A DNA stretch of 64,000 bases from a virus (lineage: Duplodnaviria > Heunggongvirae > Uroviricota > Caudoviricetes): the IMG/VR virus record IMGVR_UViG_3300031999_000001, positions 1 through 64,000 of that record. The stretch is one strand, 5' to 3'. A program made the translations under genes and the position numbers. A model generated the notes under the pieces. It made no database searches. It worked only from the letters and a program-made list of their open reading frames with translations, and was not told where the DNA came from. Positions 5,056-24,958 of this stretch are shown piece after piece (the first letter of the stretch is position 1; every line of letters starts with the position of its first letter).

Positions 5056-5579
5056 TCGAAATTTTCAATGGATTTATCACCAGTTTCATTATCACAACGA
5101 TAAAATTTAACATATAAGTCCAAACAATTTTCAATCATCAGTGCTTGAATGAGATTAGTTGCACGCTTTTTGGCTTTATACCAATCACCATGTCTTCCAC
5201 CTGCAGACCATGCGTTATATGCATCATCATGATATTGAATAACTTGTAAAACATCTTGATGAATTGGAAATTTTTCAGCAAATCTTCTGGCAATCATACC
5301 ATGATGATTTTCACCAGTTTTTGGTAAATTCTGATTTACCTTATGTTTGAAAGTGTCATGAAGTATTGCAATTAAACGCAATTCTGCTCTTTCATTATCA
5401 TCTTTATAGTACTTGTCGATGTTATCGAGCACTTGCTCGATGTGATAAATCACCTGACCTTCTGGATGTCCGGGTCTTTTTTTTCCATAATTTGCACCAG
5501 TAATAAATGTATTATCATTACAAATTGCTATTTCAATTCCATTTTCTGGTTTAATAATATTTTTAATTAATTCATTCAT
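5031..5579 (-). CDS. HD-domain phosphohydrolase-like protein
   Basis: His/Asp pattern H..H ... HD ... HH ... HDD (YHIEQV, ILHDTFK, ENHHG, QYHDDAY) consistent with the HD metal-dependent phosphohydrolase fold. Size (~180 aa) is like the small phage dNTP hydrolases. Confidence 0.45.
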   Translation of the reverse strand: MNELIKNIIKPENGIEIAICNDNTFITGANYGKKRPGHPEGQVIYHIEQVLDNIDKYYKDDNERAELRLIAILHDTFKHKVNQNLPKTGENHHGMIARRFAEKFPIHQDVLQVIQYHDDAYNAWSAGGRHGDWYKAKKRATNLIQALMIENCLDLYVKFYRCDNETGDKSIENFEWFVNLIK

Positions 5580-9301: not shown

Positions 9302-9810
9302 TAATTATTTTTTATTAATTTTTGTTTGAGCGACCAAATTCTCATGCAACCTAATTTTGCTATTTTCAATTGTTCTTTTTCCGTTAGTTTCCTTGCCATT
9401 CTAATTCTTTTTGATTCCCTTTTTATGTGTGCGCCTAATTGTTCCCTATCATTATAATCAGTCCATCTGTAACAAGTTATTATACCTGCGCCTTCTGGAA
9501 CTATGTCTTTACAACTTTCATACAGATTTTCAGGAAATGCAAAGTATAATTCTGTTATTCTATTTTGTCTGTCATGATGATTATGTCCTTTTTTAAAATC
9601 TGCAAGTAAGTCTGACTTACTTCTTTTAATTTCTACTTCTACCGCAACACCACTTTTTTTAATAATAAAAATATCACACTCATGCATTCCAAAACCCCAA
9701 CTGATATTTGGTACTATTATATTTTGTCTAATTCCAAAATATTTTGCAATTGCCACTTCCATTTCCATTGTTGTAAGTGGTTTTGTTTTAATCTTTTTTT
9801 GAACAGTCAC
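9301..9810 (-). CDS. possible PD-(D/E)xK-fold nuclease-like protein
   Basis: ECDIF ... VEVEIK arrangement resembles a D-x(n)-E-x-K active site; weak. Confidence 0.25.
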   Translation of the reverse strand: MTVQKKIKTKPLTTMEMEVAIAKYFGIRQNIIVPNISWGFGMHECDIFIIKKSGVAVEVEIKRSKSDLLADFKKGHNHHDRQNRITELYFAFPENLYESCKDIVPEGAGIITCYRWTDYNDREQLGAHIKRESKRIRMARKLTEKEQLKIAKLGCMRIWSLKQKLIKNN

Positions 9811-10075
9811 GATTCATTTGCATTGTCTTTAAAATTATTTTTCTTTCGGTTTTAATCTTTTTAACTTTTTCTTGCCAGTAAAGACCGCAAATAGCACGAA
9901 ATTGAAATTCAGTGCCATAATCAATGAGTTCATTTTCCAAATCCACTTCAATATTAAAACCTTTTTCTTTTAGAAATTCTTCAAGTAACAACATGATTGT
10001 TGTTTTACCTGCTCCTGCTTCTCCCGATATTATTATTTGTAATTCTTTCATATTTTTTTTGATTTTTATAATCAT
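9788..10075 (-). CDS. small P-loop NTPase (95 aa)
   Basis: Walker A GEAGAGKTT near the N-terminus; too short for a confident family call. Confidence 0.3.
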   Translation of the reverse strand: MIIKIKKNMKELQIIISGEAGAGKTTIMLLLEEFLKEKGFNIEVDLENELIDYGTEFQFRAICGLYWQEKVKKIKTERKIILKTMQMNRDCSKKD

Positions 10076-11425: not shown

Positions 11426-12331
11426 TTAGTTATCTTTTCTTATTTCTGTTAATTTTTTATCACCAGTAAGCCATTCACGAATTTCTTCGACTGTATACCA
11501 ACCATGATTATCATCATCATCACTGTAATTAACCCAATACCAAATATCATATTTGGTTTTAAGTTCTTTCTTACGTATTTCACGTGCTTCCGTATTCTCA
11601 TAATCAATCCATTTTGCAGAACATGCCATATAATATTTTGCTTTACCATAACCATTTTGATTGGCATATTTTTCTTTGATTTTTGTCATGCCAATTTTTT
11701 CCTCATAATCCTCACGATCATAATATTCTTTATCTGCTTCGTACATTTGGTCAAGTTCTTTTTGTGGTAAACGGTCAGCAATTAGTAATGAAAGACTGGA
11801 ATTGCTAAAAGGATTTTTTCGCATTAAATTAATATGAGCAATTGCAATATTACATTTCTGAAATGCTTCATATAATTCATTCAAATAACCAACCTCTTTT
11901 TCACCCATTACACCAACGCCAAAACTTCCTTCATCCCATGCACATGTAATTGGGTCTTTGAGTTCTCTGGTAGTACTTGGATGTTTTTCTTGCCACTCCA
12001 TGTTCCATAAAATATCCTCTTTATAATTCTTTAAATCATTTGGAATATTTTCTTCGGATTCAGTCATTCTTCTGCAACTATAACCAGTGTAAAGTAATGC
12101 ATATTTTTTCTTTTTAAAAGTTTCTTTTTTAAAAACAAGGTTATCAATATTTTTAGTTATTGTGCGATTTTTAATACCCATGTTTTTGTTTGTGCCTTCA
12201 GGTATGGCAAATCTTCTTCGTAAATCCTTAATGCCCCTTTCATGTTCGGCAGTATAATCATAACCAAGTGATATTCCGATAAATTTATCATCAATAATTA
12301 TAATTCCATAATCTTGACTTGCTTTTCTCAT
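11426..12331 (-). CDS. hypothetical protein
   Basis: ORF only. Confidence 0.4.
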   Translation of the reverse strand: MRKASQDYGIIIIDDKFIGISLGYDYTAEHERGIKDLRRRFAIPEGTNKNMGIKNRTITKNIDNLVFKKETFKKKKYALLYTGYSCRRMTESEENIPNDLKNYKEDILWNMEWQEKHPSTTRELKDPITCAWDEGSFGVGVMGEKEVGYLNELYEAFQKCNIAIAHINLMRKNPFSNSSLSLLIADRLPQKELDQMYEADKEYYDREDYEEKIGMTKIKEKYANQNGYGKAKYYMACSAKWIDYENTEAREIRKKELKTKYDIWYWVNYSDDDDNHGWYTVEEIREWLTGDKKLTEIRKDN

Positions 12332-12387
12332 TGTTTTATTTTTTTATTTATATGCAAATATAGAAAAATTTTTAATATATAGTATAT

Positions 12388-14349
12388 CTATTGTTTTAAA
12401 AAATGTTTAACCTTATCGTCATAAGAATATATTAATTTATCATTAATTTCTTTTTGCACAAGACCTAATCCATTATTATTGCATATGAAACGAAACTGTT
12501 CAACATTTATTGTGTTATTATCCATAGCAAATTTAACAAGCAATTTATATATCCTCAAATGTTTTGTTAAAATATCTTTTGCCCTTTTCTTTTCTTCTGC
12601 TAAAATATTTTCAATTATGTTATTTGTTGAATCAATATCATAATTTAATTCATGTGGTAATGGTGATTCTTTTTTTCCAATTCTTGATATATTTCCATCC
12701 ATACCATACATTCTAACATATTTTCCCGCAACATCTGTTGCATATAATATATCAATTGATGCACCATTTGACTTATATTCTTCACCAAATACAATTTCTT
12801 CCGCAACAAGACCTGCTAAATATATAACCATTTGATTTCTTATAAATGTTTTATTATCAATCAAAGTATGATTAATAACAAAACCATTTGAAAGACCAGC
12901 ACTATTAATATTTATTTGTTTTGGCGGTGTATTAAAAAGTAATGCGTATGTAAGTGCATGACCTAATTCATGAACAGCAAAAAGCATTTTTTCATCTACT
13001 GACTTACTCTCACGAATATTATCAATATCCAAAACAATTTCTTTTGTAATTTTTTTCTTGTTGATTTCACTAAAAAGTATCTTATTTTCGAAATCAAGAT
13101 AGAACTCGTTTACATTGTTTAAGAGAGCATGATACATGAAATGAGGTAGATTACTGCCAAGTACATTGAAAACCGTGGAAATTGCAGGTCTAACCCCTTG
13201 TGTGGGAAATACACCATTCCTATATATCACATCGAAAATATTATTTGATAATGTAATTTTTATGGCGTGTTCTTTTTCAATTCTATTTAAAATTTGATAA
13301 CAATTCTTTTTAATAATTGTATAATAACTTTGCTTATCTAAACAAGGATATATAACATGATTATTACCAAATCTGGCAATTTGTTCCGGTTTAAATTGAG
13401 TGGATAACGCATTTTTTATGTGAACGATATTAATTCGTTTTGATAATTCATGATATACGTCAGCGTCTGTTTCACTATCTTCGATATCATCAGCCATTTT
13501 AAACGCAGTATCAAGATTTCCAGATATAAAAATTAAAAGTTTCTCATATGATTTACCATCATTAACATTTCCAGCTTTTAATGTTTTTTCCATAATTTCC
13601 ATGCGTTCTTCAAGACTCATTCTCATAATTTCTTCTGCAGAGATTTGCAAATTAAGCATTTTTTTAAATCTATTTGCAGTCCAATGAGAAGTTTTGAACC
13701 GATAACTTTTTATTTTTTTTGGAACAGATTTTATCAAATTTTTACCACTTTGTCTTTTTGGTTTGTCTTTGGCTTCTGCTGATACTTCATCAGTATTTTC
13801 TCTTTGGTCAAGCCAATACATTTCTTCAAGCATCATTTCCATAATTTCAACTCTACGTTGTGAATTATTTTGAAATTTACCATCAGAAAGTAACGTCCAG
13901 ACATCATTAAAATATTTATTTTCAAGCATTTCACCTTGTTCATTCAAGGTACGATAACGTTGAATTTCATCAAGTAAAAGTATTGCGGGTTCATTTGAAT
14001 CAATGCCACTATTTTCTAAATAATTTTCAACATTTCTGGCATAATCATTTTTAATATCCATTTGAATTTCAATAAATTTATCATTAAAATTCAAAAGACT
14101 AACAAGGGTACGAACCAAATCTGTTTTACCAACACCAGTAATACCCCATAATGAAATAATAAGTGGTCTGAATTGAATTTTAGGTGTTAAATACCACAAT
14201 GAAATATTATCCATAATTTTGTCAATAACATCATTAATACCAATGAATTTTTCTTTTAAACCTATTTTAACATCTTCAAGTTTTTTTCTTTTGTTTTCAA
14301 TTTCTTTAAGAAATTCATTATTCATAATTTCGGGTTTTATATATATCAT
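12388..14349 (-). CDS. FtsH-like AAA+ ATPase / M41 zinc metalloprotease lacking transmembrane segments
   Basis: Walker A GITGVGKT and Walker B ILLLDEIQ. A second AAA region (LIFISGN ... FKPEQIARFGNNHVIYPCLD) tracks the FtsH box ATNRPD...RPGRFD. The C-terminal peptidase region tracks FtsH closely (AVHELGHALTYALL ~ HEAGHAL; LAGLVAEEIVFGEEYKSNGASIDILYATDVAGKYVRMYGM ~ FtsH LGGRAAEE..FG..TTGASNDIE.AT.IAR.MV..G). No hydrophobic segment is present. Confidence 0.65.
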   Translation of the reverse strand: MIYIKPEIMNNEFLKEIENKRKKLEDVKIGLKEKFIGINDVIDKIMDNISLWYLTPKIQFRPLIISLWGITGVGKTDLVRTLVSLLNFNDKFIEIQMDIKNDYARNVENYLENSGIDSNEPAILLLDEIQRYRTLNEQGEMLENKYFNDVWTLLSDGKFQNNSQRRVEIMEMMLEEMYWLDQRENTDEVSAEAKDKPKRQSGKNLIKSVPKKIKSYRFKTSHWTANRFKKMLNLQISAEEIMRMSLEERMEIMEKTLKAGNVNDGKSYEKLLIFISGNLDTAFKMADDIEDSETDADVYHELSKRINIVHIKNALSTQFKPEQIARFGNNHVIYPCLDKQSYYTIIKKNCYQILNRIEKEHAIKITLSNNIFDVIYRNGVFPTQGVRPAISTVFNVLGSNLPHFMYHALLNNVNEFYLDFENKILFSEINKKKITKEIVLDIDNIRESKSVDEKMLFAVHELGHALTYALLFNTPPKQININSAGLSNGFVINHTLIDNKTFIRNQMVIYLAGLVAEEIVFGEEYKSNGASIDILYATDVAGKYVRMYGMDGNISRIGKKESPLPHELNYDIDSTNNIIENILAEEKKRAKDILTKHLRIYKLLVKFAMDNNTINVEQFRFICNNNGLGLVQKEINDKLIYSYDDKVKHFLKQ

Positions 14350-15727
14350 TATTTATAATCCAAAAATTTATAGCAATTGAAATTGCTAATGCAAACACAT
14401 AAATAAATATTATTGCACCTGTCGATGGCTCTACGGTTAAATAACTAAATTCTTCGAAAGACCTTCTTTGAAATTTATTAAGATTTTGATTCAGATAATT
14501 ATAATAATCATCCCATGTTTGTTCTGTTAACATCGGATATTTTGATTTTATTTTAATTATGGTGTCAGTACTGATTTGCTTTGGAAATGGAAGAACATCA
14601 GGCAATTTTTCTCCAGCTTTACCCAATATGGCTTTTTTTGTTTTTTTATCAATAGGAATTACAGGTGGAAAATTTTCTTTTTTTACTGTACTATCTTTAT
14701 ATGTATAAAGGTTCAGTATTTCGTTTTTTACTTCAGCAGTTAACACATCGGAAGTTGCCCATGAAAATGCATGTGACCATAGTATTTGATTGCCTTTTTT
14801 ACCAATACATACCACTAACTCATTCTTATTGCTTTTAACCCAATAATTTTCCTGATATTGAGCAATTGACCTTGGTTTATTTTCAAATACCAATATCCAA
14901 AGTCTTAATTGGTTACTTACACCAAATTTACCATTGAGTCTTTTAAATTTTTCTTGGGTTTCTTTACTGATATTATCACCTAATATTGTTGGATATTCAA
15001 GACCTTGTGTCATATGAAATAAACTACTGCCTTCATATGATGGATATTTAAATAATCCCATACTGTCAGCTTCTTCTTCTTTAACAAGTTTAATATTAAA
15101 AATGGTTAAATCAGATGCTTTAATACGATTTTCATATGAATGTTGACTTACATATGCTTTACGAGTTTCATCAGTACCATCCCAAGTTGTCTGATATACA
15201 TATGATATTTCTCCCACACGTTTACCTTCGAATTTAGTTCCTTTACTACCAACACATCTATCACGTGATGCAAAATTATTATGAGAATCAATTGATGTTT
15301 TTTTGGTGCGAAATTGTTTTACTAATTCATCATGTTGTTTTTCAGCAATATTAAATTTTTCATTAATATCTGTAACTGCCCACCAAGACGGTCCAACATC
15401 ATCCTGATGTGAACAATCATATGTTTCCGTGCAGTAATTAGTATTTCCTTTGCTATCAGTACCACATGGATAAGTTCTTGTACAAATTTCAGTATGCCAA
15501 TAATTATATGGTTCTTCTTCATATACAGCAGTAACGGTTGAACCCCAATATTCACTAAATTGAACACTGGTATAATTAATAATTAATTTAGAAATTATTA
15601 TTGCAATAAGTACAGACCCAATAGGTATGAAAAATTCCCACCAAGTAAATTCATGTTTTTTTATAAAATAAAAAACTGCTGTTACCAATATGGGAACTAA
15701 TATTGCAAAATAATAAAATTCTGACAT
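14318..15727 (-). CDS. membrane protein (two N-terminal and one C-terminal TM helices, large Cys/Trp/Tyr-rich central domain)
   Basis: Hydrophobic helices at both ends; overlaps the FtsH-like gene by 32 nt, indicating translational coupling. Confidence 0.5.
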   Translation of the reverse strand: MSEFYYFAILVPILVTAVFYFIKKHEFTWWEFFIPIGSVLIAIIISKLIINYTSVQFSEYWGSTVTAVYEEEPYNYWHTEICTRTYPCGTDSKGNTNYCTETYDCSHQDDVGPSWWAVTDINEKFNIAEKQHDELVKQFRTKKTSIDSHNNFASRDRCVGSKGTKFEGKRVGEISYVYQTTWDGTDETRKAYVSQHSYENRIKASDLTIFNIKLVKEEEADSMGLFKYPSYEGSSLFHMTQGLEYPTILGDNISKETQEKFKRLNGKFGVSNQLRLWILVFENKPRSIAQYQENYWVKSNKNELVVCIGKKGNQILWSHAFSWATSDVLTAEVKNEILNLYTYKDSTVKKENFPPVIPIDKKTKKAILGKAGEKLPDVLPFPKQISTDTIIKIKSKYPMLTEQTWDDYYNYLNQNLNKFQRRSFEEFSYLTVEPSTGAIIFIYVFALAISIAINFWIINNDIYKTRNYE

Positions 15728-15729
15728 GC

Positions 15730-16578
15730 TTATTCGTTTTTAGGTATATAATTCAATAAAAATTCTCTATCTTGTGTAAATGTTGGGCATTCATCGGCAA
15801 CCCATTTACTACGAATGGTTGTTTGTAAACAATCGACAGGTGGCATTCCTTCTGGTAATTTAGGTGTGACAACTACTTCAACCTGTTGTTTAAAAATAAA
15901 TCTACCACGCTTATACTTAGGTGCATAGTCGTTCCAGTTAATACCCTTTTGGAATATCATTTCCTGCTGTTCACTCACATTTTTACCTGCAAGTTCTTTG
16001 TGACTGTAAAGACTCTGTGCAACACTTGAAATGCTATTGCGAACAGTATCTTGCTGTCTCCAAATGAAGTAGTTTTCAACCTCATAGTCACACGGAATGG
16101 TAAATACTCTGGCATCAAATTCAGCAAGTTTAGAACCAAGCACTTCACCAAGAAGAACCTGTTCAAATGCAGTAATTCCATGTGCCTCAATATCAACATT
16201 CATGCTTCCATATGCACGAAATATTCTTAACTGATTGAACTTAGCGGTAGCCATACTTGCAGCAACACTTGCCATTTTCTGGATATTACCGTCAAACCAC
16301 GCATCAGTACCTATCTTATCAAAGTCAGTAAGAAGAATGCTGATTTCATCACTCTGAACGAAACCAAACTTAGCACCCTGCATGTTCTTGCAGAGATAAC
16401 AAGCTGTTTCATCCATGTCAGCAATAAGACCATCATCAAACGGCTTATTCAGTCCACGTGTATATGTGTGGAATGCTTTGCCATCAATGCGAATGATTGT
16501 GTATGTTCTGCGGGGAAGTGTAATACGAGTTCTATCCTCATAATACTTCTTCATCCTATCACCAAATTCGTCTCTCAT
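15730..16578 (-). CDS. Thg1-like protein (tRNA-His guanylyltransferase family, 3'-5' nucleotidyltransferase, TLP)
   Basis: IIRIDGKAFHTY ~ Thg1 VVVRLDGRNFHRF. FGFVQSDEISILL ~ YGQSDEYSFVF. FDARVFTIP..E..NYFIWRQQD ~ FDGRVVVYPS...DYLSWRQAD. Confidence 0.75.
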   Translation of the reverse strand: MRDEFGDRMKKYYEDRTRITLPRRTYTIIRIDGKAFHTYTRGLNKPFDDGLIADMDETACYLCKNMQGAKFGFVQSDEISILLTDFDKIGTDAWFDGNIQKMASVAASMATAKFNQLRIFRAYGSMNVDIEAHGITAFEQVLLGEVLGSKLAEFDARVFTIPCDYEVENYFIWRQQDTVRNSISSVAQSLYSHKELAGKNVSEQQEMIFQKGINWNDYAPKYKRGRFIFKQQVEVVVTPKLPEGMPPVDCLQTTIRSKWVADECPTFTQDREFLLNYIPKNE

Positions 16579-16705
16579 TTTTTTTCTATTATTTTCTCGT
16601 ATTTTTTTTCCATGTCTCTTGCCATTGCAGCAAGTTCGAAATTTTGAATATTGAGGAATGCCACCTTTAATTCACGAATTTTTTTTAAAATTTTCGTAGA
16701 TTCTT

Positions 16706-17569
16706 TCATTGTAATTTGTTATTAAGTTTCTGTTTAAAAAGTTGAACTGTTTTATTACCAATTGCTTTTGATGCTTCTTTGGATTCAATGATTTCTTCAC
16801 GACCTTCCCGGTAAACATCTTCAACCATTGCTTTAATAACCTCACCCATTGATTCCATATTTACATCTGTGGGAAATTTCTGCAATACGTGTTCAAGTCT
16901 GAGATTAGTTACCCATTCTTCTGCAATTGCTTTTGCATCTTCCAAAACTTTTAGTGCTTCGGGACTAATTTCACGTTTAGTTTTAGTTTCCATTTGTTCA
17001 TCTGGCTTGTACTTGCAAATAACCCTTGCACCATTATTAAGACGCATTTCAACAAGTGGACGACAAACAATGCCTTCACGCTTATGGTCGTATCCCATGC
17101 CATTACGAACGGCTTGTATTGAATACATATCTCTTAATGCTGTAAGATTTTCCAATGTAACATCAATTTTGTTATAGTGTACAAATTCAACACCGAATTG
17201 ATAACATACATCTTGTGCATTTGGCACATCAAGCCAATTATCACCGACTTTTACATCAAAGCCAATGAATCTCAGTTCCTTGCCATAAGTATGTGACATA
17301 CCCTGTTGTTTTCCACCATAGGCTTCACCAAAAATAACAACATCAATATCGGGAAATATTTCCTGAAATTTTGATTTTAGAAAATTTTCATTGAATAATG
17401 CCACAAAGTTGTCGTGTTTTTCACCACCACTGGAAAAATGAATTATTTTCTCACTGAACTTCCAGCTTATATGTGCGGATGTGCCATGAATTTTTTCCAT
17501 AGCATAACATTCCTTAAATAAAAGGATTGTCTGGTCTTTGTAAAGGTTGTCAATGTGTAAATATCCCAT
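16706..17569 (-). CDS. RNA ligase, Rnl2 family
   Basis: Nucleotidyltransferase motifs collinear with T4 Rnl2: I EKIHGTS, III VIFGEAYG, IIIa FIGFDV, IV EGIVCRP, V RVICKYK. Confidence 0.8.
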   Translation of the reverse strand: MGYLHIDNLYKDQTILLFKECYAMEKIHGTSAHISWKFSEKIIHFSSGGEKHDNFVALFNENFLKSKFQEIFPDIDVVIFGEAYGGKQQGMSHTYGKELRFIGFDVKVGDNWLDVPNAQDVCYQFGVEFVHYNKIDVTLENLTALRDMYSIQAVRNGMGYDHKREGIVCRPLVEMRLNNGARVICKYKPDEQMETKTKREISPEALKVLEDAKAIAEEWVTNLRLEHVLQKFPTDVNMESMGEVIKAMVEDVYREGREEIIESKEASKAIGNKTVQLFKQKLNNKLQ

Positions 17570-17763
17570 ATTATTCTTTATTTGTTGTTTTTTCCAATCC
17601 CTTGCCCAATAAATCCAATCCTATAAAAACAGTGGAAGGTGTACTGTCCGCAAACATTACTTCTTCTTTCTTATATCGCATCATTTTTAAAAATTCTTCT
17701 TTTTCTTTTTCTGTTTTTACAACAGGTTTTCCGTCTGAATCTTCAAAGCCAATTATTATCATT

Positions 17764-18138
17764 TTATTCGGGTGTTTCGGTTAATGTTAATAAATCATTA
17801 AGTGAAGACATACTTCTCATTTTGAATGCTGTTTCCAACGTAGGTTTTAAATCACTTGGGCAATCATCTAAATTAGATTTGCTGTCAATTAAAAATTGAA
17901 CCTTACTGTTATCATCAAGCCGAAGGGTTGTAATAACAATTTGTTCTTTTTTCTCAAAATCATATTGCATCACAATACGAATTCTTTTTGAAAATTCATT
18001 TGTAATGCCTATTCTTTTAATATTCCTTTCAACCTGAAATTGAGAAGTAGTGAGATAAATATTACCCTCAATCAAGCCTTCATATAAGAATATTTTTTCG
18101 CCTTCTTCTGTTTCAATTTTATATTTCATGTCATACAA
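17764..18138 (-). CDS. hypothetical protein
   Basis: ORF only; it sits between the RNA ligase and the structured-RNA locus. Confidence 0.35.
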   Translation of the reverse strand: MYDMKYKIETEEGEKIFLYEGLIEGNIYLTTSQFQVERNIKRIGITNEFSKRIRIVMQYDFEKKEQIVITTLRLDDNSKVQFLIDSKSNLDDCPSDLKPTLETAFKMRSMSSLNDLLTLTETPE

Positions 18139-18293
18139 ATTTTAATTAAAAAAACCAGTTTTTATCTTCATCAAAACGGGCAAAACTTAGGTTTACGAAA
18201 TTTTTCCTACCGCCATTCCTTCTTTCTGGGCATTCAGTCCCTTTCAGGCACGTTATCTGGCATTGAACACGTAGCCACCGTGTTAGGATTCGT

Positions 18294-18408
18294 GGTCGGA
18301 GCAAGGTTCGAACTTGCATGATGATATTAACTCTACAACGGGCGTATCTCTTCGTAGTCACGTAATCATCTTATGTAGGTAAGCGACTGCCAATTTCGCC
18401 ATCCAACC
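18294..18408 (-). ncRNA. tRNA-like element with non-canonical length (~115 nt) inside a 510 bp ORF-poor, GC-enriched locus (18139..18648)
   Basis: Minus strand reads GGTTGGA-T-G-GCGA-AATTGGCAG-TCGC ... GCAAG-TTCGAAC-CTTGC-TCCGACC-A. This gives a 7-bp acceptor stem (one G-U), U8, a D-stem with A14/G18G19/A21, and a canonical T-arm (G53, T54-T55-C56-G57-A58, C61). An extra ~40 nt hairpin (GATGATTA ... TAATATCATC) replaces a normal anticodon arm. No CCA is encoded. Confidence 0.3.
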
Positions 18409-18648
18409 ATCAAAAAATCTTTCTGCCCGTTTCCACACGGAATACCAGAGTTGCCCTCTATTATGTACTTCGGTCTGCCCTTACCAGACTGCTTCACTTG
18501 GCGAAGGGTATTTTACGGCAAACAACGCCCCTTGGAATAGAACTGTAATCGAGCCACGCCTCACCTTTCCCTGTGACTCTGGTTTTTTAGGGTGTAATTA
18601 CTGTTTGCTTTCAGCAGAAAGACTTTATTTTCAAAGAACTAATACTCC

Positions 18649-19197
18649 TTAATTTTTCTTAAACAAATCAACCTCATTTTCCTGTCCGGTTTTATAGGCA
18701 TCTTCGGTTTTAAGCGATTTGATAATCACGATTGCCAAATCTTCACGTTTGCCTATAACAAGTTTCTTCGGGAAAGTCATACGCATATTTTTATGTTGAC
18801 GATCAATATCAATAAGTTTTTGCTGTTCAATAAAAAAACCTTCACGTTGTCCTTCAATTGATGCCATAAGTTTTTCATACAATTCAATTTTAAATTCTGG
18901 ATTATGTTCAGTAACCCATTTCATAAATGTTTGTTGACCCTGACCATCATCAGAATAACGACCTTCCATAAGTAATGGATATACTTCTTTAAAAGCATCT
19001 TTGTATTGATCAGCAACCTGTGCTTGCTGTTGAAGTATTTTCCATACTTTGTCAAAATATGCTGCACATGATTCTTGCTGGGCACTACCTCTGTTGCGGA
19101 GTTTAATTTCAGAATTGCTTAGACCTATTGCCCAAAAAGCAAAACTTATGCCCAATATTAATACAAGTCCTAATGTAATTAATGTTCCTGTTTTCAT
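18649..19197 (-). CDS. membrane-anchored hypothetical protein (N-terminal TM)
   Basis: Hydrophobic N-terminus MKTGTLITLGLVLILGISFAFWAIGL. Confidence 0.4.
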   Translation of the reverse strand: MKTGTLITLGLVLILGISFAFWAIGLSNSEIKLRNRGSAQQESCAAYFDKVWKILQQQAQVADQYKDAFKEVYPLLMEGRYSDDGQGQQTFMKWVTEHNPEFKIELYEKLMASIEGQREGFFIEQQKLIDIDRQHKNMRMTFPKKLVIGKREDLAIVIIKSLKTEDAYKTGQENEVDLFKKN

Positions 19198-19247
19198 TTT
19201 TTAATTTTTAATTAATTTTAAAATTTCATTTGACAAATATAATCAAA

Positions 19248-19646
19248 TTATAATAAGTTAGCAATATATTTAATAGAAATTTCACATTTATCAATTTCCT
19301 TATTAATAAATTTTTCTAAAATTTTCTTTTTTTCACTGTCTTGTTCCTTTTTTAAAAGTTTAAGCAATGCTAAAAGATTTTCTAATGGTGTGAGTTCATT
19401 TCTAATGTCTGCACCAACAACACCAGCTTCAATCAGATCAAACTCTACGAGTTCCATTCGCTCCCAATCCAATTCGAAACCTTCGTAAAAATCTTCCTCA
19501 TTAAATATTTTTTTCATGAGTTCAAGAGTTGCACTCTCTGGTTGTACTTTTGGTAATTCCGATGTGCAAATCTGTGGTTCATCATCAAATTGTTCGATAT
19601 GAACAAATTCTTTTGTATCTTTATAACGTAGTGCTTTTATTTTCAT
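19248..19646 (-). CDS. hypothetical acidic protein
   Basis: ORF only. Confidence 0.35.
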   Translation of the reverse strand: MKIKALRYKDTKEFVHIEQFDDEPQICTSELPKVQPESATLELMKKIFNEEDFYEGFELDWERMELVEFDLIEAGVVGADIRNELTPLENLLALLKLLKKEQDSEKKKILEKFINKEIDKCEISIKYIANLL

Positions 19647-21300: not shown

Positions 21301-22935
21301 TTATAAATCTACTTTAAAACGTAATGCAACTGGAAAACGTGGTTTTTTGTTTTTTCTTGTATAACCTTGATACTGAACTGTTACTATTCTACCAATAACT
21401 AATGATTTGTCATCAGCATATAATTTAAGGTCATCCATTTTACCTTTGAGTTTACAATCAAATGTAATACCTGCTGGTAACTGTTGGTCTTCTTTGGTTC
21501 TTTCACAAATGAACACAGCTTTACCTGCCATGATACCTTTTGTACCTATCTTTATGTCAACAACACGAAATTCGTCATCATCAAATACTTTAACTTTTTG
21601 CAAATCGTATGAACGTTTGTTCACATACATTCCATCAAAGTTTCTGACAATTGCACCTTCATATCCCATTTCCATGAAGTCTTCATAGGCTTGCATCAGT
21701 TCCTCTTTACTGTTAACAATTCTTGATTCAACAATATGAATTGGAGAATTTTCAAATATTGAACGCCATCCTTCAAGTATTAAATACCTATCATAATTTG
21801 TAAGATTTGGAAGTGCTAAATCATAAACATGATATTGAATAACTTCATAACCATCTTGTGGTTCATCGGATGTTATTAAAGAAGTTAGTTTTTCGAATGT
21901 TATTTTTTCTTTTGGAAAATTAAGTACTGCATGATCACCAAATAATTCGAATGCTTTTTTATCATATGCTTTTGCAGCATCTTCAGCAGTATTAAAATAA
22001 CCAATATGAATTTTTTTATAATCATGAGTAATCTGAGCATGCCAATTTTCATCTCTTTTAAAAAACATAACACCTTTATATCCACTTGTATTGTTTATTC
22101 TTTTTTCAGAATTTGCACCATTATTTGATTCAGTAACTAATCTTAGATTACTTTTTCTTGCATCTAATTTATTTCTATTAATATGATCAACATCACTTTC
22201 TGGTAAATCTAAAACTAATTTATGTATATAATAAATTTTATGTTTATATGTTGTAATGGGATATCCATTTCCAGAGATTGTAATTTTATTACCTTGTAAT
22301 TTAGGTAAATCTTCTTCATCAAGAAAAACAATATTTCCATTAATATTAAATTCAAGAAATGGTATTTCTATTGATTTATTTTCTTGAATATTAATATCTG
22401 GATGCCATAATTCACCATCAAATCTATCAGCAAGTCCACAATTTTCTAAAGTATTGACAATATGAGGAATTGTTAAAATTTGTTTACGGGTTCTACTCCA
22501 CATAGTTACCTTTCCAATGTCATACTGACTGGTGCAACGGTGTCCATCCAATTTAGGTTGTGCTATTGCAGGAAATTTAATTTTATGCCCTTGTTCCCAA
22601 AATTTATGGGCAAGAATTGGAAATACACCACCTTCAATAATTGCATCGGTTGTACCTGCTTGTGCATCTTCAATACTCTGAACATAACCTTTTTTGAGTT
22701 GTTTATCCCATCTGGCTTTGGCTTGAAATATACCTTGTTCAATTGGAGTTGTTTCATTTGATCTACCAGTATTTTTACCTGATAAAACCTGTTCATGGCT
22801 GTATTGAATTTTACCCCCAACCTGACCAAATCTGTTGATTATGGTAGAGATGCCATTGATTTCATCAACACTGACTGTCCATTCTTGAATAGCACCAGTA
22901 CTGGTTTTCTTGTAAAGTTTTGGAAATTCTTTCAT
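21301..22935 (-). CDS. ATP-dependent DNA ligase carrying an in-frame HNH-AP2 endonuclease domain insertion
   Basis: Ligase motifs I KLDGHR, III FDGELW, IIIa YHVYDL, IV EGAIVR and V LQKVK, plus an OB-fold tail. About 180 aa (nt ~21858..22398) between motifs III and IIIa form an HNH (VDHINRNKLDARKSNLR) plus AP2 (SGYKGV...WHAQI...IGYFNTAEDAAKAYD) unit. Confidence 0.75.
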   Translation of the reverse strand: MKEFPKLYKKTSTGAIQEWTVSVDEINGISTIINRFGQVGGKIQYSHEQVLSGKNTGRSNETTPIEQGIFQAKARWDKQLKKGYVQSIEDAQAGTTDAIIEGGVFPILAHKFWEQGHKIKFPAIAQPKLDGHRCTSQYDIGKVTMWSRTRKQILTIPHIVNTLENCGLADRFDGELWHPDINIQENKSIEIPFLEFNINGNIVFLDEEDLPKLQGNKITISGNGYPITTYKHKIYYIHKLVLDLPESDVDHINRNKLDARKSNLRLVTESNNGANSEKRINNTSGYKGVMFFKRDENWHAQITHDYKKIHIGYFNTAEDAAKAYDKKAFELFGDHAVLNFPKEKITFEKLTSLITSDEPQDGYEVIQYHVYDLALPNLTNYDRYLILEGWRSIFENSPIHIVESRIVNSKEELMQAYEDFMEMGYEGAIVRNFDGMYVNKRSYDLQKVKVFDDDEFRVVDIKIGTKGIMAGKAVFICERTKEDQQLPAGITFDCKLKGKMDDLKLYADDKSLVIGRIVTVQYQGYTRKNKKPRFPVALRFKVDL

Positions 22936-22940
22936 GATTG

Positions 22941-22971
22941 TTTATACGAATTTTATTTAAAAATATTACAA
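22941..22971 (-). promoter_or_regulatory. conserved phage promoter-like motif, copy C (TTGTAA-N19-TATAAA)
   Basis: Invariant TTCGTATA; 6 nt upstream of the ligase ATG. Confidence 0.45.
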
Positions 22972-23769
22972 TTTTTCATGTCTTTGTTTCACCATTTCTT
23001 TTTGAATGTATTGCCAGAACCACTTATAAAACATATTTGGTAATATTCCATGATTTGCAAAACCATAGAGTCCACAACTGAAGAAATCATGTGCCTCAAT
23101 AATAATTGTAGCATAATCACATACAGCAACATCAAGTGTATATGCAACAGGTGCTGACTTGTATGTTTTAATCATGCTTTTAATTGTATCAACACTTGGG
23201 AATCTGGTGAAATCACCAGCATAATTCTGCAAACCAACAAATTTGTCTTGATATACAAATGCACGCCATTCACTTTCAATACAACTAATATAATCAGAAA
23301 TCTGATAGTTTCCAATTGGAATTTTAGTTGAATATTGTGTTCCATGATTACCAGTATCCTTACATTCAACAATTTCTGAAAAATATTTTATTCGGTCATT
23401 ACTTTTAACAAAATACTTACCACCACAATTTTCGAGAGATAAATGATTGCCATTAAATATGTGTCTTTGGGTAAAACAAGGGTCAAATAATTCTTCTGGA
23501 ACATTAATTGGCATCACATGAATACCATAAAAATGGTGTATAAACTCTGAAACGAATTCAACACTTCCCACTGGAATATATTTCTCATGTAATGATTTAA
23601 AAGGCATTGGATAAATATCAATTGGTTCGACAGTATCGTGGTATTCGACAAACTTTACTTTAATATTATTATCACGATGTAACCAATTTTGAAATTTAAT
23701 TGATTCAAGTAATGTAAATGAAAAATCATGTACAATTTTTCCCTTAATTTTTTGAATTAAAAATTTCAT
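22966..23769 (-). CDS. hypothetical protein (possible ATP-grasp-like C-terminal region)
   Basis: YTLDVAVCDYATIIIEAHDFFSCG loosely resembles the ATP-grasp E-x-N strand; weak. Confidence 0.3.
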   Translation of the reverse strand: MKFLIQKIKGKIVHDFSFTLLESIKFQNWLHRDNNIKVKFVEYHDTVEPIDIYPMPFKSLHEKYIPVGSVEFVSEFIHHFYGIHVMPINVPEELFDPCFTQRHIFNGNHLSLENCGGKYFVKSNDRIKYFSEIVECKDTGNHGTQYSTKIPIGNYQISDYISCIESEWRAFVYQDKFVGLQNYAGDFTRFPSVDTIKSMIKTYKSAPVAYTLDVAVCDYATIIIEAHDFFSCGLYGFANHGILPNMFYKWFWQYIQKEMVKQRHEKL

Positions 23770-23800
23770 AGTTCAAATATATATATTAATTTTTAATTAA

Positions 23801-24958
23801 TCAACAATTCTCCAATGTATATTGAAAACCCTTATCTGAATAACATGGAAATTTAAAATTTATACCACAATATGAACCAATTTCATTAAAATTCACTGTA
23901 ATTAATTTACCTTTTTTTGTTACTGGAATTGCTTCGGGGTTAACTTGGTCAAGACAAGTAATTACCATACTTCTTCGTGAAATAGGATTATGATATTTAT
24001 CACATTCAACAGCATATTTCAATAAATCCAAATCAAGTACAGTTTTTCTGAAAGTTCCCTGATAACATTCATTTATATTGGTTTCATTGGGATTTTCTTT
24101 AATGTATGATGTATCAAGTCTTTCATTGGTCATATATCCATTACCATGACGTGTTTGATATGCACGTGTTACATAATAAGTTTTTAAATTTTTCTTATCA
24201 ATAAAAATTCCATATTTATTTATAATTTCTATTGCATTTTTTGATGTGGTATTACTTCTTGTAACATGTGGAAAAAAACCATAATTAGCATCTAACATAA
24301 TGCCCTGACCGCCTTCAAAAATCCAATCATTATCCATGAAACCATATAAATCATTAACAATATTATATCTGGTAACAAGGTCATCACATGCAATAATAAA
24401 ATCATCATAGAGTTTTTTGATATAGGCATGTTGATGTTCATTTTCTGGATTAAAATTTAACCTATAATATATATTCATTATAAGTCTGAGTTTTTCATTA
24501 CGGATTGCGGGATAAAATAAATCCCTGACATAAAGATGATAATGATCTTCATTTCTTTGAATTGTTGTTCCAAATCCTACACCAACACTACCATGATTAT
24601 TTTTTTCTTCAAGTTTATGATTTTGCAATATATCAAATGGTGTTGTAATCATTGCATTGGCATTAAGATATAATATTGGATTTACATCCATTTCTCTTAA
24701 CACCTTACCTTCTTTTAATATTCCAACAGGACTTACCGTACAATATTCTGACCAATAAGTTGGTACATTTAAAAGTGTACCTGAACCAAAATTAGAAAAT
24801 ACATGTCTTTTATCATTGGTAATAACAGTATGTCCAGATTGATGACCTGAATTATGTCTTATAACTAATGGATTTTTTGCTTTTGAACACAAATAATTAA
24901 CAAAAGAACCCTTGCCTTCATCACCATATAAACATCCGAGAATTACATATATATTCAT
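23801..24958 (-). CDS. adenylosuccinate synthetase family protein (PurA/PurZ homologue)
   Basis: N-terminal VILGCLYGDEGKGS (PurA P-loop GDEGKGK). RHNSGHQSGHTV ~ GGHNAGHT. GFGTTIQRNEDHY ~ GTTGRGIGPAYEDK. EGGQGIMLDANYGFFPHVTRSNTT ~ [24 protein letters not shown]. At 385 aa it is shorter than bacterial PurA (~430 aa). Confidence 0.8.
   Translation of the reverse strand: MNIYVILGCLYGDEGKGSFVNYLCSKAKNPLVIRHNSGHQSGHTVITNDKRHVFSNFGSGTLLNVPTYWSEYCTVSPVGILKEGKVLREMDVNPILYLNANAMITTPFDILQNHKLEEKNNHGSVGVGFGTTIQRNEDHYHLYVRDLFYPAIRNEKLRLIMNIYYRLNFNPENEHQHAYIKKLYDDFIIACDDLVTRYNIVNDLYGFMDNDWIFEGGQGIMLDANYGFFPHVTRSNTTSKNAIEIINKYGIFIDKKNLKTYYVTRAYQTRHGNGYMTNERLDTSYIKENPNETNINECYQGTFRKTVLDLDLLKYAVECDKYHNPISRRSMVITCLDQVNPEAIPVTKKGKLITVNFNEIGSYCGINFKFPCYSDKGFQYTLENC

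What the first reader, a model, noticed from the sequence alone, without database searches (positions are those of the whole stretch)
15730..17569. Adjacent Thg1-like 3'-5' nucleotidyltransferase and Rnl2-type RNA ligase: a two-enzyme tRNA repair module
Two neighbouring minus-strand genes carry clear family signatures. Gene 15730..16578 has Thg1/TLP motifs IRIDGKAFH, QSDEIS and FDARVF..NYFIWRQQD. Gene 16706..17569 has all five Rnl2 nucleotidyltransferase motifs (EKIHGTS, FGEAYG, FIGFDV, EGIVCRP, RVICKYK). Bacterial-type Thg1-like proteins rebuild damaged tRNA 5' ends in a template-dependent way. Rnl2-family ligases seal nicked tRNA. Together they could repair both tRNA 5'-end and anticodon-loop damage, a plausible counter-defence against anticodon or acceptor-stem nucleases. 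A 510 bp structured-RNA locus with a tRNA-like element lies ~500 bp further along the same strand. No Pnkp-type end-healing enzyme is obvious in the window. The only candidates are a small P-loop protein (9788..10075) and a HAD-like protein (31866..32261).
Basis: partly seen in the sequence, partly recalled or inferred. Interest (0 to 1): 0.8.

Follow-up and report, generated by a model that had tools for sequence, protein, structure and literature searches.

The report
Phage RNA ligase–TLP tRNA-maintenance gene pair
An uncultured giant phage carries an RNA-sealing enzyme and a 'reverse' RNA polymerase that rebuilds tRNA 5' ends as overlapping genes, a pairing already proposed in the literature, and the more unusual feature is an unclassified 500-nt structured RNA with a tRNA-like core just upstream.

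Summary
ORF 15730..16578(-) is a bacterial-type Thg1-like protein (TLP): Pfam Thg1 2.6e-26, B. thuringiensis TLP 4KGK 7e-59, all catalytic residues invariant. ORF 16706..17569(-) is a compact, divergent Rnl2-type ATP-dependent RNA ligase: PF09414 5.6e-13, profile to T4 Rnl2 1.9e-10, Foldseek top hit T4 Rnl2, motifs I–V invariant.

The two genes are joined by a conserved 44-aa ORF through ATGA stop/start overlaps. The linkage looks selected. Of 64 dereplicated phage TLP lineages, 16 have a PF09414 ligase within 10 kb and 11 within 1.5 kb, always on the same strand. In relatives of this phage, three non-orthologous ligases fill the same slot upstream of the TLP. Both enzymes also sit inside or beside tRNA gene arrays in other phages.

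The "repair against host nucleases" function remains an inference. No polynucleotide kinase is present in the window; there is only a HAD 'Swiss-army-knife' phosphatase 14 kb away. The idea itself is published (Anantharaman 2010; Iyer 2021). I rate it a new member of a known kind, of moderate interest.

The adjacent RNA (18139..18648) is real, covariation-supported, absent from Rfam, and contains a tRNA-like cloverleaf without an anticodon loop. Whether it is a substrate is open.

The parts
15730..16578 (-). Thg1-like protein (TLP), 282 aa: bacterial-type 3'-5' template-dependent nucleotidyltransferase
   Evidence: Pfam Thg1 2.6e-26; Thg1C 6.5e-5, just below its cutoff. PHROG 4717 3e-86. BtTLP 4KGK 7e-59, with 'RNSISS' where eukaryal Thg1 has HINNLYN. 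R30/D32/G33, Q75-S76-D77-E78, F154-D155-R157 and W173-R174-Q175-D177 are invariant in 20 phage homologues; residues 118-150 are a hypervariable insert.
16575..16709 (-). 44-aa ORF bridging ligase and TLP by ATGA stop/start overlaps at both ends; contains a UVR-like 'FELAAMARDMEKKY' motif (recognised by eye only)
   Evidence: Coordinates; both overlaps read directly. Homologous small ORFs follow the ligase in L006 and L009. No Pfam or PHROG hit.
16706..17569 (-). Compact Rnl2-type ATP-dependent RNA ligase, 287 aa (nucleotidyltransferase domain of about 190 aa plus a four-helix C-terminal domain)
   Evidence: PF09414 5.6e-13. TIGR02307 Rnl2 6e-12 but far below the equivalog cutoff. Profile against PDB: T4 Rnl2 full length 1.9e-10, aligned across residues 20-266 of the query and 30-308 of the target, versus 1.2e-4 for the NTase-only construct. 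K26 (motif I), E82 (III), F101/F104 (IIIa), E165-G166 (IV) and K186/K188 (V) are invariant in 18 homologues. AF2 model with Foldseek top hits 2HVR/2HVQ at E 1e-10.
17571..18138 (-). Two small ORFs of unknown function (63 aa at 17571..17762; 124 aa at 17764..18138), packed 1 nt apart between the RNA locus and the ligase; this is the variable part of the block
   Evidence: No family hits. Only the 63-aa ORF has a homologue, in L003. Relatives carry other small ORFs or none at this position.
18151..18317 (-). T-arm plus conserved 3' domain and terminator-like hairpin/T-run of the structured RNA
   Evidence: Alignment A4: 27 pairs, 13 of them with compensatory changes. Covariance model R1 scores 157 bits here and 70-189 bits in every clade member. 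No Rfam family.
18292..18408 (-). tRNA-like core: 7-bp acceptor helix GGTTGGA/TCCGACC, D-arm, canonical T-arm GCAAG-TTCGAAC-CTTGC, discriminator A, no encoded CCA; a ~50-nt extended arm replaces the anticodon arm
   Evidence: ARAGORN in default mode finds nothing. With introns allowed it calls tRNA-Tyr(gta) with a 39-nt insert at a non-canonical site. The acceptor helix covaries across relatives, with a unique 5' partner in 10 of 11 copies at 2-18% chance each. MFE cloverleaf.
18410..18630 (-). 5' domain of the structured RNA (about 220 nt), closed by the long-range helix AGTCTTTCTGC / GCAGAAAGAT
   Evidence: Alignment A3: 35 pairs, 8 of them with compensatory changes. GC 0.40-0.55 against a background of 0.28. 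Left uncalled by independent gene callers.
31866..32261 (+). Stand-alone HAD phosphatase of the 'Swiss-army-knife' RNA-repair type; candidate 3'-phosphate end-healing enzyme (14 kb away, opposite strand; link inferred)
   Evidence: Pfam HAD_SAK_2 1.4e-13, above its cutoff. This family is described as the stand-alone RNA-repair phosphatase of jumbo phages in PMC7824862.

Best explanation
The two genes form a co-expressed tRNA-maintenance pair of an uncultured jumbo phage. Related contigs reach 148-363 kb, the window is about 28% GC, and the host is possibly a Bacteroidota.

Shown here:
- One gene encodes an intact bacterial-type TLP and the other an intact Rnl2-type ATP-dependent RNA ligase.
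- They are linked by overlapping stop/start codons through a 44-aa ORF.
- TLP–ligase linkage recurs across phage lineages, with several ligase subtypes.
- Both gene families sit in or next to tRNA gene arrays.

Inferred from the known biochemistry of BtTLP/archaeal TLPs and T4 Rnl2:
- The TLP activates the 5'-monophosphate of a 5'-shortened tRNA (or tRNA-like RNA) with ATP. It then adds the missing nucleotides in the 3'-5' direction, using the 3' strand of the acceptor stem as template.
- The ligase, via Lys26-AMP and an AppRNA intermediate, seals 3'-OH/5'-PO4 nicks in base-paired parts of the same RNAs.
- Acting in series, they could fill and then seal a gap in a tRNA stem.
- The likely purpose is to keep the tRNA pool translatable during infection, despite host tRNA-directed nucleases or processing errors. 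The HAD_SAK_2 phosphatase may clear 3'-phosphates.
For: - Family membership and catalytic residues.
- Translational coupling.
- Synteny in 7 close relatives, always in the order ligase then TLP on the same strand.
- Non-orthologous ligases in the same slot of related phages. These are the window type of 287 aa, the L046 type of 345 aa with PF09414 only, and the L043 type with PHA02142-OB plus PF09414 (2e-35 / 1.3e-21).
- Further independent adjacencies: L081 (OB type), L098 (T4_Rnl2_C type), L048, L050, L070, L074.
- After dereplication, 16 of 64 TLP lineages have a ligase within 10 kb and 11 within 1.5 kb, all on the same strand.
- tRNA context of the TLP: 22 of 80 loci have tRNAs nearby. The TLP lies inside arrays of 24-30 tRNAs in L056 and L068, and a tRNA-His starts 18 nt after the TLP in L072.
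- tRNA context of the ligase. tRNAs end 30-90 nt before its start in L026/27/32/38. In L148 it is embedded in a ~30-tRNA array. A tRNA-His lies 1.1-1.5 kb upstream in L014/21.
- RNA-repair-type HAD phosphatase in the window.
- Published precedent for Thg1–RNA-ligase and Thg1–PNK neighbourhoods and a predicted tRNA repair role: PMC2904730. For jumbo-phage RNA-repair toolkits: PMC7824862.
Against: - No enzymatic or expression data exist for any phage TLP that I could find.
- No 5'-kinase, 2H/cyclic phosphodiesterase, RtcB or CCA-adding enzyme was found in the 64 kb. The rest of the genome, roughly 140-300 kb, is unseen.
- No canonical tRNA gene occurs in the window.
- The pairing is dispensable. 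L007 and L018 keep the ligase without a TLP. Most distant ligase loci and 48 of 64 TLP lineages show no partner within 10 kb. Three cultured phages (XacN1, Eldridge, PMBT8) lack it next to the TLP.
- Within the close clade, part of the adjacency could be inherited gene order.
- None of the defence nucleases I looked up truncates tRNA 5' ends. Prokaryotic Schlafen cuts the T-loop, Cas12a3 cuts 3' tails, and PtuAB depletes tRNA-Tyr.
Confidence: 0.55

Rival explanations
1. The two enzymes work independently and are merely neighbours in a variable 'accessory' region. The TLP would mature phage or host tRNAs (for example templated G-1 addition to tRNA-His with C73, or 5'-end proofreading of phage tRNAs). 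The ligase would have a separate RNA-sealing task.
For: - Each gene occurs without the other in some close relatives (L007, L018) and in most distant loci.
- 8 TLP loci have a tRNA-His nearby, and in L072 one directly follows the TLP.
- Cultured TLP phages lack an adjacent ligase.
- The interval between the genes is a hot spot for small ORFs and homing endonucleases.
Against: - Three non-orthologous ligases occupy the same slot upstream of the TLP in related phages.
- 11 of 64 lineages have a ligase within 1.5 kb, always on the same strand. A single random gene would be expected within 1.5 kb in only about 1% of ~300-kb genomes (my rough estimate).
- The ATGA-coupled reading frames here imply stoichiometric co-expression.
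Confidence: 0.25
2. The ligase and the TLP act primarily on the adjacent ~500-nt structured RNA, or on its tRNA-like core. They might finish, repair, circularise or re-join it after processing, or the RNA might recruit or regulate them. The functional unit would then be an RNA–ligase–TLP triad.
For: - The order RNA, ligase, TLP is kept throughout the clade even when the ligase type changes.
- The ligase start codon lies 11-30 nt after the RNA's terminal hairpin in L004, L009, L010, L011/L036 and L043.
- The RNA has a covarying acceptor helix and T-arm, so it presents the duplex 5' end that TLPs recognise.
- In distant phages, ordinary tRNAs occupy the equivalent position in front of the ligase.
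Against: - The RNA is also present where the TLP is missing (L007, L018), so it is a backbone feature of the clade.
- It is not found next to ligases or TLPs outside the clade.
- Its acceptor helix is intact in the genomic sequence, with no encoded 5' mismatches that would call for editing.
- A terminator-like hairpin separates it from the protein genes.
- No experimental data exist.
Confidence: 0.15
3. The ligase is not an RNA-repair enzyme at all. It could be a DNA or DNA/RNA-hybrid nick-sealer or an RNA 5'-adenylyltransferase, and the TLP could make 5'-extended or capped small RNAs unrelated to tRNA.
For: - T4 Rnl2 can seal nicks in RNA:DNA hybrids, and its biological role is unknown (established knowledge).
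- Anantharaman et al. noted that Thg1 could also create 5'-App ends.
- The ligase is far below the Rnl2 equivalog cutoff.
Against: - The window already encodes a separate ATP-dependent DNA ligase at 21301..22935.
- tRNA genes recur next to both families.
- The closest structural and sequence relatives are all RNA ligases.
Confidence: 0.05

Closest known systems
Bacillus thuringiensis Thg1-like protein (BtTLP; PDB 4KGK/4KGM) and archaeal TLPs (5AXK)
   Same: - Same family and domain order.
- 7e-59 to BtTLP over residues 3-117 and 150-234.
- Identical catalytic motifs (RIDG, QSDEIS, FDxR, WRQQD) and the TLP-type 'RNSIS' in place of the eukaryal HINNLYN.
- The expected chemistry is therefore ATP/GTP activation of a 5'-phosphate followed by templated 3'-5' addition.
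   Different: - It is phage-encoded.
- It carries a ~30-residue hypervariable insertion (118-150) between the two conserved halves, and a longer C-terminus.
- Substrate and activity are untested.
Bacteriophage T4 RNA ligase 2 (RnlB; PDB 2HVQ/2HVR/1S68)
   Same: - Nucleotidyltransferase motifs I, III, IIIa, IV and V, including the adenylylated lysine.
- An all-helical C-terminal domain that aligns with the T4 Rnl2 C-domain.
- T4 Rnl2 is the best PDB hit by both profile (1.9e-10) and fold (E 1e-10).
   Different: - 287 aa against 334 aa, at about 20% identity.
- It fails the TIGR02307 equivalog cutoff (45.7 against 197 bits), and Pfam T4_Rnl2_C is not detected.
- It forms its own abundant metagenomic family of more than 4,000 proteins, seen only in viral or MAG contigs.
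- In T4, rnlB is not next to a TLP (own knowledge).
Thg1–polynucleotide kinase–(Macro)–RNA ligase gene neighbourhoods in bacteria (Anantharaman, Iyer & Aravind 2010, PMC2904730) and the jumbo-phage RNA-repair toolkit (Iyer et al. 2021, PMC7824862)
   Same: - The association of a Thg1-family polymerase with an ATP-dependent RNA ligase, and the predicted role in tRNA repair or splicing, were stated there.
- Stand-alone 'Swiss-army-knife' HAD phosphatases, Rnl2 and Thg1 are all listed as jumbo-phage RNA-repair components.
   Different: - No polynucleotide kinase or Macro domain was found in this window, although that is the most persistent partner in bacteria.
- The phage survey lists the enzymes per genome but does not describe ligase–TLP adjacency.
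- It also does not describe the ligase-type replacement in one slot, or the adjacent structured RNA.
T4 Pnkp + Rnl1 repair of PrrC-cleaved tRNA-Lys
   Same: A phage-encoded enzymatic reversal of tRNA damage, ending in an ATP-dependent sealing step (established knowledge; cited in PMC2610378 and PMC7824862).
   Different: - A different ligase family (Rnl1, specialised for anticodon-loop breaks).
- It needs Pnkp end-healing, which is not found here.
- No 3'-5' polymerase is involved.
Rsr(Ro60)–YrlA–RtcB loci of bacteria (own knowledge; ROT/TROVE with a 'tRNA-like partner' is mentioned in PMC7824862)
   Same: A non-coding RNA with a tRNA-like module (T-arm, D-arm, acceptor-like helix, no decoding anticodon loop) encoded beside an RNA ligase.
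   Different: - No Ro/TROVE protein was detected among the scanned ORFs.
- The ligase is ATP-dependent Rnl2-type rather than RtcB.
- The RNA is about 500 nt with two extra domains and does not match Rfam Y RNA/YrlA models.

Membership tests
Thg1 superfamily (Pfam PF04446) | Thg1 catalytic (palm) domain scoring above the curated threshold | tested here: met
   92.5 bits against a cutoff of 29.2, E 2.6e-26, covering profile positions 2-130 of 130.
Thg1 superfamily (Pfam PF04446) | Metal-binding carboxylates and nucleotide-binding residues (D of R-x-D-G; S-D-E; F-D-x-R; W-R-Q-x-D) | tested here: met
   D32, D77, E78, D155, R157, R174 and D177 are invariant in 20 phage homologues and align with BtTLP.
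Thg1 superfamily (Pfam PF04446) | Thg1 C-terminal domain (PF14413) | tested here: inconclusive
   23.6 bits against a cutoff of 26.3. However, residues 150-234 align with the corresponding part of BtTLP and Candida/human Thg1.
Bacterial-type TLP (as opposed to eukaryal tRNA-His-specific Thg1) | Closest to characterised TLPs, and lacks the HINNLYN motif used by eukaryal Thg1 for the tRNA-His anticodon | tested here: met
   BtTLP 7e-59 against eukaryal Thg1 at about 1e-10. 'VRNSISS' aligns where Candida Thg1 has 'HINNLYN'.
Bacterial-type TLP | Template-dependent 3'-5' nucleotide addition to 5'-truncated tRNA | not testable with these tools
   Needs an enzyme assay.
ATP-dependent RNA ligase, Rnl2-like clade (Pfam PF09414) | RNA_ligase nucleotidyltransferase domain above the curated threshold | tested here: met
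   49.8 bits against a cutoff of 27, covering profile positions 2-171 of 171.
ATP-dependent RNA ligase, Rnl2-like clade (Pfam PF09414) | Motif I lysine and motifs III, IIIa, IV and V | tested here: met
   E25-K26-x-H28-G29, G81-E82, F101/F104, E165-G166 and K186/K188 are invariant in 18 homologues of 47-81% identity and align with T4 Rnl2 K35, E99, F119, E204 and K225/K227.
T4 Rnl2 family proper | All-helical C-terminal domain homologous to the T4 Rnl2 C-domain | tested here: met
   The profile alignment runs to residue 308 of 2HVQ and scores 43.9 bits, against 24.8 bits for the NTase-only chain 1S68. The AF2 model has four C-terminal helices, and Foldseek ranks full-length T4 Rnl2 first. Caveat: Pfam T4_Rnl2_C itself did not hit, and the model linker has low confidence.
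T4 Rnl2 family proper | Equivalog-level similarity (NCBIfam TIGR02307) | tested here: not met
   45.7 bits against a cutoff of 197. It is a divergent sister subfamily, not an RnlB orthologue.
Pnkp/Rnl-type RNA repair system | 5'-kinase plus 2',3'-phosphatase end-healing enzyme encoded with the ligase | tested here: not met
   No PNK, 2H, Metallophos-Pnkp or RtcB was found among the scanned ORFs of the window. Only HAD_SAK_2 and an HD-domain protein turned up. The 95-aa P-loop ORF has only generic sub-threshold hits. The rest of the genome was not available.
tRNA (for the element at 18292..18408) | Detected by tRNA models, with a 7-nt anticodon loop | tested here: not met
   ARAGORN in default mode and Rfam found nothing. 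ARAGORN makes a call only with a 39-nt 'intron' at a non-canonical site and a mismatched anticodon stem. The relatives' equivalent arms end in 5-6-nt loops.
tRNA-like structure | Acceptor helix and T-arm supported by covariation | tested here: met
   In the T-arm, 4 of 5 pairs show compensatory changes. The acceptor 7-mers covary (GGTTGGA/TCCGACC, GATTGGG/CCCAATC, GCGTAGA/TCTACGC, GCGAGAA/TTCTCGC…), with a unique partner in 10 of 11 copies.

The most novel reading that the evidence does not exclude
The conserved block is a three-part RNA-centred system: a ~500-nt structured RNA with a non-decoding tRNA-like core, an RNA ligase whose type is interchangeable, and a 3'-5' polymerase. The RNA would be the dedicated substrate, scaffold, decoy or sensor for the two enzymes. 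For example, it could be a tRNA mimic that soaks up or reports host tRNA-directed nucleases and is rebuilt by TLP plus ligase. If so, this would also point to a natural substrate class for Rnl2-type ligases, whose biological role has been unknown since T4 Rnl2 was described.
Probability: 0.15. Interest if true: 0.75.

Novelty: new member of a known kind. Interest (0 to 1): 0.4.

Why it matters
tRNA-directed nucleases are now recognised as a major arm of bacterial immunity (PrrC, RloC, PARIS, retron PtuAB, Cas12a3, prokaryotic Schlafens, OLD). Phage countermeasures beyond 'bring your own tRNA' are poorly characterised. No phage TLP has been studied experimentally in the literature I could search, and the physiological substrate of Rnl2-type ligases is still unknown.

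This locus offers a compact, co-translated ligase–TLP pair. Comparative evidence (ligase-type swapping in a fixed slot, recurrent same-strand adjacency, embedding in tRNA arrays) makes a joint tRNA-directed function testable. The practical value is modest, because the hypothesis is already in print and the enzymes belong to known families. The adjacent unclassified structured RNA is the element most likely to give something new.

Tried and rejected
- Nucleotide search against 50,697 deposited phages found nothing. The genome has no sequenced close relative. The closest deposited ligase homologue is in a 485-kb uncultured phage, with no TLP within 12 kb.
- Rfam, at gathering thresholds and at a permissive setting, gave no family for the RNA locus. 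This argues against tmRNA, RNase P RNA, group I/II introns, Y RNA, GOLLD/ROOL and known ribozymes.
- tmRNA, including the permuted form, is rejected. ARAGORN finds none, no CCA is encoded, and the T-arm and acceptor lie in the middle of the RNA.
- 'Intron-containing tRNA-Tyr spliced by the ligase' was considered because of the ARAGORN -i call and rejected as the main reading. The insert position 31/32 is non-canonical and the predicted anticodon stem has a mismatch. Relatives have inserts of 40-115 nt at differing places and no 7-nt anticodon loop. No splicing endonuclease was found.
- My first profile search wrongly suggested that the L043 group has a TLP but no ligase. Reading the ORFs showed an OB-fold DraRnl-type ligase in the same slot, and I rescanned with all ligase types.
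- The 347-aa ORF upstream of the TLP in Staphylococcus phage PMBT8 was suspected to be a ligase. It is not.
- The 95-aa P-loop ORF as a polynucleotide kinase: it has only generic sub-threshold P-loop hits and is too short. Not supported.
- The sigma-70 promoter and terminator scan of 12000..19400 was no better than shuffles and uninformative.
- The cellular-genome scan returned only MAG contigs of inconsistent taxonomy, so the host remains unknown. The Bacteroidota bins are only a hint.
Full report
**1. Observation**

The two minus-strand ORFs exist exactly as described: 15730..16578 (282 aa) and 16706..17569 (287 aa).

The window is AT-rich (about 28% GC), with nearly all genes on the minus strand. 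It has no megablast match among deposited phages. Exact copies of the ligase occur on metagenomic contigs from JGI, ENA and Logan, up to 200 kb. Close relatives lie on IMG/VR contigs of 148-363 kb. So this is a jumbo phage known only from metagenomes. A scan of 185,579 species' genomes returned only MAG contigs of scattered taxonomy. That fits a phage-borne gene; several of the closer hits are in Bacteroidota bins, which is a weak host hint.

**2. What the two proteins are**

*TLP*
- Pfam Thg1 2.6e-26 (92.5 bits, cutoff 29.2); Thg1C is just below its cutoff; PHROG 4717 'tRNA-His guanylyltransferase' 3e-86.
- The best solved relative is Bacillus thuringiensis TLP (4KGK, 7e-59). Eukaryal Thg1 proteins score only about 1e-10. 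Where they carry HINNLYN, this protein has VRNSISS, as BtTLP does.
- In an alignment of 20 phage homologues (50-84% identical), the catalytic residues are invariant: R30-x-D32-G33, Q75-S76-D77-E78, F154-D155-x-R157, W173-R174-Q175-x-D177. Residues 118-150 are a hypervariable insertion.

*Ligase*
- Pfam RNA_ligase PF09414 5.6e-13.
- NCBIfam Rnl2 6e-12, but far below the equivalog cutoff.
- There is no single-sequence PDB hit. A profile of 18 homologues matches full-length T4 Rnl2 at 1.9e-10, across both the nucleotidyltransferase and C-terminal domains.
- All five nucleotidyltransferase motifs, including K26, are invariant.
- An AlphaFold model (pLDDT 67.6; core confident; four C-terminal helices) finds T4 Rnl2 first by Foldseek (E 1e-10), ahead of archaeal Rnl3, T. 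brucei REL1 and Naegleria Rnl5.
- It is therefore a compact, divergent Rnl2-type ligase. It belongs to an abundant family (4,297 database proteins) seen only in viral or metagenomic contigs.

**3. Organisation**

The genes form a tight minus-strand array: 124-aa ORF, 63-aa ORF, ligase, 44-aa ORF, TLP, a 469-aa membrane protein, then an FtsH-like AAA+/M41 protease. Gaps are 1-2 nt or the frames overlap. The 44-aa ORF overlaps the ligase stop and the TLP start by ATGA in both cases. It has homologues after the ligase in L006 and L009. This implies co-transcription and translational coupling of ligase and TLP.

**4. Is the pairing meaningful?**

Among 37 IMG/VR ligase loci, the TLP follows the ligase on the same strand in all seven close relatives with enough flank, except L007 and L018. 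The interval (0.2-1.4 kb) accumulates small conserved ORFs and homing endonucleases. In L004 a GIY-YIG ORF appears to split the TLP N-terminus.

Distant ligase homologues (47-59% identical) mostly lack a TLP within 10 kb.

A group of relatives (L043/44/45/54/114) at first seemed to have the TLP without a ligase. In fact they carry a different ligase in the same slot, a PHA02142-OB plus PF09414 DraRnl-type enzyme. L046 carries a third type. So in one conserved backbone, three non-orthologous ATP-dependent RNA ligases sit between the same RNA gene and the TLP.

Outside the clade, further ligases of OB type (L081), T4_Rnl2_C type (L098) and others lie next to TLPs. After dereplication at 90% identity, 16 of 64 TLP lineages have a PF09414 ligase within 10 kb and 11 within 1.5 kb, always on the same strand. 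That is well above what a single randomly placed gene in a ~300-kb genome would give (roughly 7% and 1%, my estimate).

The linkage is frequent but not obligatory. Three cultured TLP phages that I inspected (XacN1, Eldridge, PMBT8) have no adjacent ligase.

**5. Link to tRNA**

The 64-kb window has no canonical tRNA or Rfam hit. In other phages both families are tRNA-gene-associated.
- 22 of 80 TLP loci have tRNAs within 10 kb.
- The TLP sits inside arrays of 24 and 30 tRNAs in L056 and L068, and a tRNA-His follows it by 18 nt in L072.
- The ligase family is preceded within 30-90 nt by tRNAs in L026/27/32/38 and by tRNA-His in L014/21. It is embedded in a ~30-tRNA array in L148.

**6. End-healing**

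Pfam scans of about 60 window ORFs found no polynucleotide kinase, 2H phosphoesterase, RtcB or CCA-adding enzyme.

This is the stand-alone 'Swiss-army-knife' RNA-repair phosphatase that Iyer et al. describe in jumbo phages. It lies 14 kb away on the other strand. An Rv2179c-like 3'-5' exoribonuclease (8e-53) and an HD-domain protein are also present. The 95-aa P-loop ORF is not a credible kinase.

With what is visible, only 3'-OH/5'-P or 3'-P/5'-P ends could be handled. The 5'-OH ends left by classical anticodon nucleases could not.

**7. The neighbouring RNA**

*It is a real, unclassified structured RNA.* The 510-nt gap at 18139..18648 is GC-rich and is left uncalled by independent gene callers. 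It is conserved by blastn in relatives and absent from Rfam.

*It has three parts.*
- A ~220-nt 5' domain, closed by a long-range helix: 35 pairs, 8 with compensatory changes.
- A tRNA-like core.
- A ~150-nt 3' domain ending in a hairpin plus T-run: 27 pairs, 13 with compensatory changes.

*The core looks like a tRNA but cannot decode.*
- It has a covarying 7-bp acceptor helix, with a unique partner in 10 of 11 copies at 2-18% chance each.
- It also has a D-arm and a canonical T-arm. It spans 102-184 nt and has no 7-nt anticodon loop.
- ARAGORN calls it only as a tRNA-Tyr with a 39-nt insert at a non-canonical site, which I do not accept as an intron.

*Its distribution is limited to this clade.*
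- A covariance model of the 3' half finds it in every member of this phage clade, including members with other ligase types or without a TLP, and nowhere else among the loci held.
- In several relatives the ligase start codon follows its terminal hairpin by 11-30 nt.
- It may be a substrate, scaffold or regulator for the enzymes, or simply a backbone neighbour. The present data cannot decide.

**8. Mechanism proposed**

*Shown:* intact TLP and Rnl2-type ligase, co-expressed, recurrently linked, and tRNA-associated.

*Inferred from characterised homologues:* the TLP rebuilds 5'-shortened acceptor strands by templated 3'-5' addition after 5'-adenylylation. The ligase seals 3'-OH/5'-P nicks in base-paired RNA. 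In series they could fill and seal gaps in tRNA stems, keeping tRNAs or tRNA-like RNAs functional during infection.

*Rivals:* independent functions, for example tRNA-His G-1 addition or phage tRNA 5' maturation by the TLP; a dedicated role on the adjacent RNA; or non-tRNA substrates.

**9. Comparison with what is known, and novelty**

Anantharaman, Iyer & Aravind (2010) already reported Thg1–RNA ligase and Thg1–PNK neighbourhoods in bacteria. [quoted passage not shown] Iyer et al. (2021) list Rnl2, SAK-HAD phosphatases and Thg1 in the jumbo-phage RNA-repair arsenal. I found no experimental study of a phage TLP.

The finding is thus a new member of a known kind. It adds three things:
- same-strand adjacency statistics in phages;
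- ligase-type replacement in a fixed slot;
- a conserved unclassified RNA next door.

Interest is moderate (0.4). The most novel reading still open is an RNA–ligase–TLP triad, which I put at about 0.15 probability.

Noticed in passing
window 18139..18648 (-); also L003, L004, L006, L008-L012, L018, L033, L036, L037, L043, L046, L129, L130, L134: An unclassified ~500-nt structured RNA, conserved in this jumbo-phage clade. It has a 5' domain, a non-decoding tRNA-like cloverleaf (102-184 nt, with a covarying acceptor helix and T-arm), a highly conserved 3' domain (…CCTAACACGGTGGCTACGTGTT…AGGAAAG…AAACCTAA…), and a terminator-like hairpin. There is no Rfam match. Some relatives carry two tRNA-like modules in tandem. 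The expanded arm often holds a palindromic GGTGCACC / CGTGCAYG motif.
   Followed up: partly
L004 11385..12238 (and L009 11261..12196): In L004 the TLP reading frame starts (MRDELGDRMK…), breaks off, and resumes about 850 nt later. A 254-aa GIY-YIG-like ORF lies in between, so this may be an intron or intein-less insertion with a homing endonuclease. In L009 a 311-aa LAGLIDADG-like ORF sits directly in front of the TLP.
   Followed up: no
L043 9172..9990: A 272-aa CxxxCxxC protein with a sub-threshold Radical_SAM match (27.8 bits) lies between the OB-type RNA ligase and the TLP in the L043 group. It could be an RNA-modifying partner.
   Followed up: no
L003, L004, L006, L009, L010, L012, L033 (interval between ligase and TLP): Two families of small conserved proteins recur between the ligase and the TLP in relatives but are absent from the window. 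One is a Cys-rich 64-71-aa protein (…C-S-x-C-P-x-F…D-W-C-P-C-K-I). The other is a 'MGRYSRKDMIEFA…' protein.
   Followed up: no
L026/L027 9628..9703 / 4695..4770; L038 9628..9703; L029 12490..12564; L056 4160..4235 and 5333..5405; L111 6208..6280: Suppressor-type tRNAs (anticodons TTA, TCA, CTA) occur next to ligase or TLP genes in several related phage contigs. This suggests stop-codon reassignment or read-through in some of these phages.
   Followed up: no
window 21301..22935 (-): An ATP-dependent DNA ligase (DNA_ligase_A_M plus OB) whose sequence is interrupted by HNH_3 and AP2 domains. The catalytic-domain match comes in two stretches, suggesting an inserted homing-endonuclease module.
   Followed up: no
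window 29693..30262 (+) and 32519..33037 (+), 31079..31879 (+): A plus-strand island contains an Rv2179c-like 3'-5' exoribonuclease (8e-53), a second weak copy, a GmrSD_N/DUF262 protein, a thioredoxin, and the HAD_SAK_2 phosphatase. It may be a second RNA- or conflict-related cluster.
   Followed up: no
window 12388..14349 (-) and 14318..15727 (-): An FtsH-like protein (AAA plus Peptidase_M41) and a 469-aa protein with terminal hydrophobic segments (PHROG 2087) always follow the TLP in this clade. The function of a phage-encoded M41 protease here is unexplained.
   Followed up: no
window 48618..51947 (-); 22966..24958 (-): A single 1,109-aa Mre11 (Metallophos)–Rad50 (AAA_23, zinc hook, SMC_N) fusion protein. 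Separately, an R2K ATP-grasp protein lies next to an adenylosuccinate synthetase homologue.
   Followed up: no
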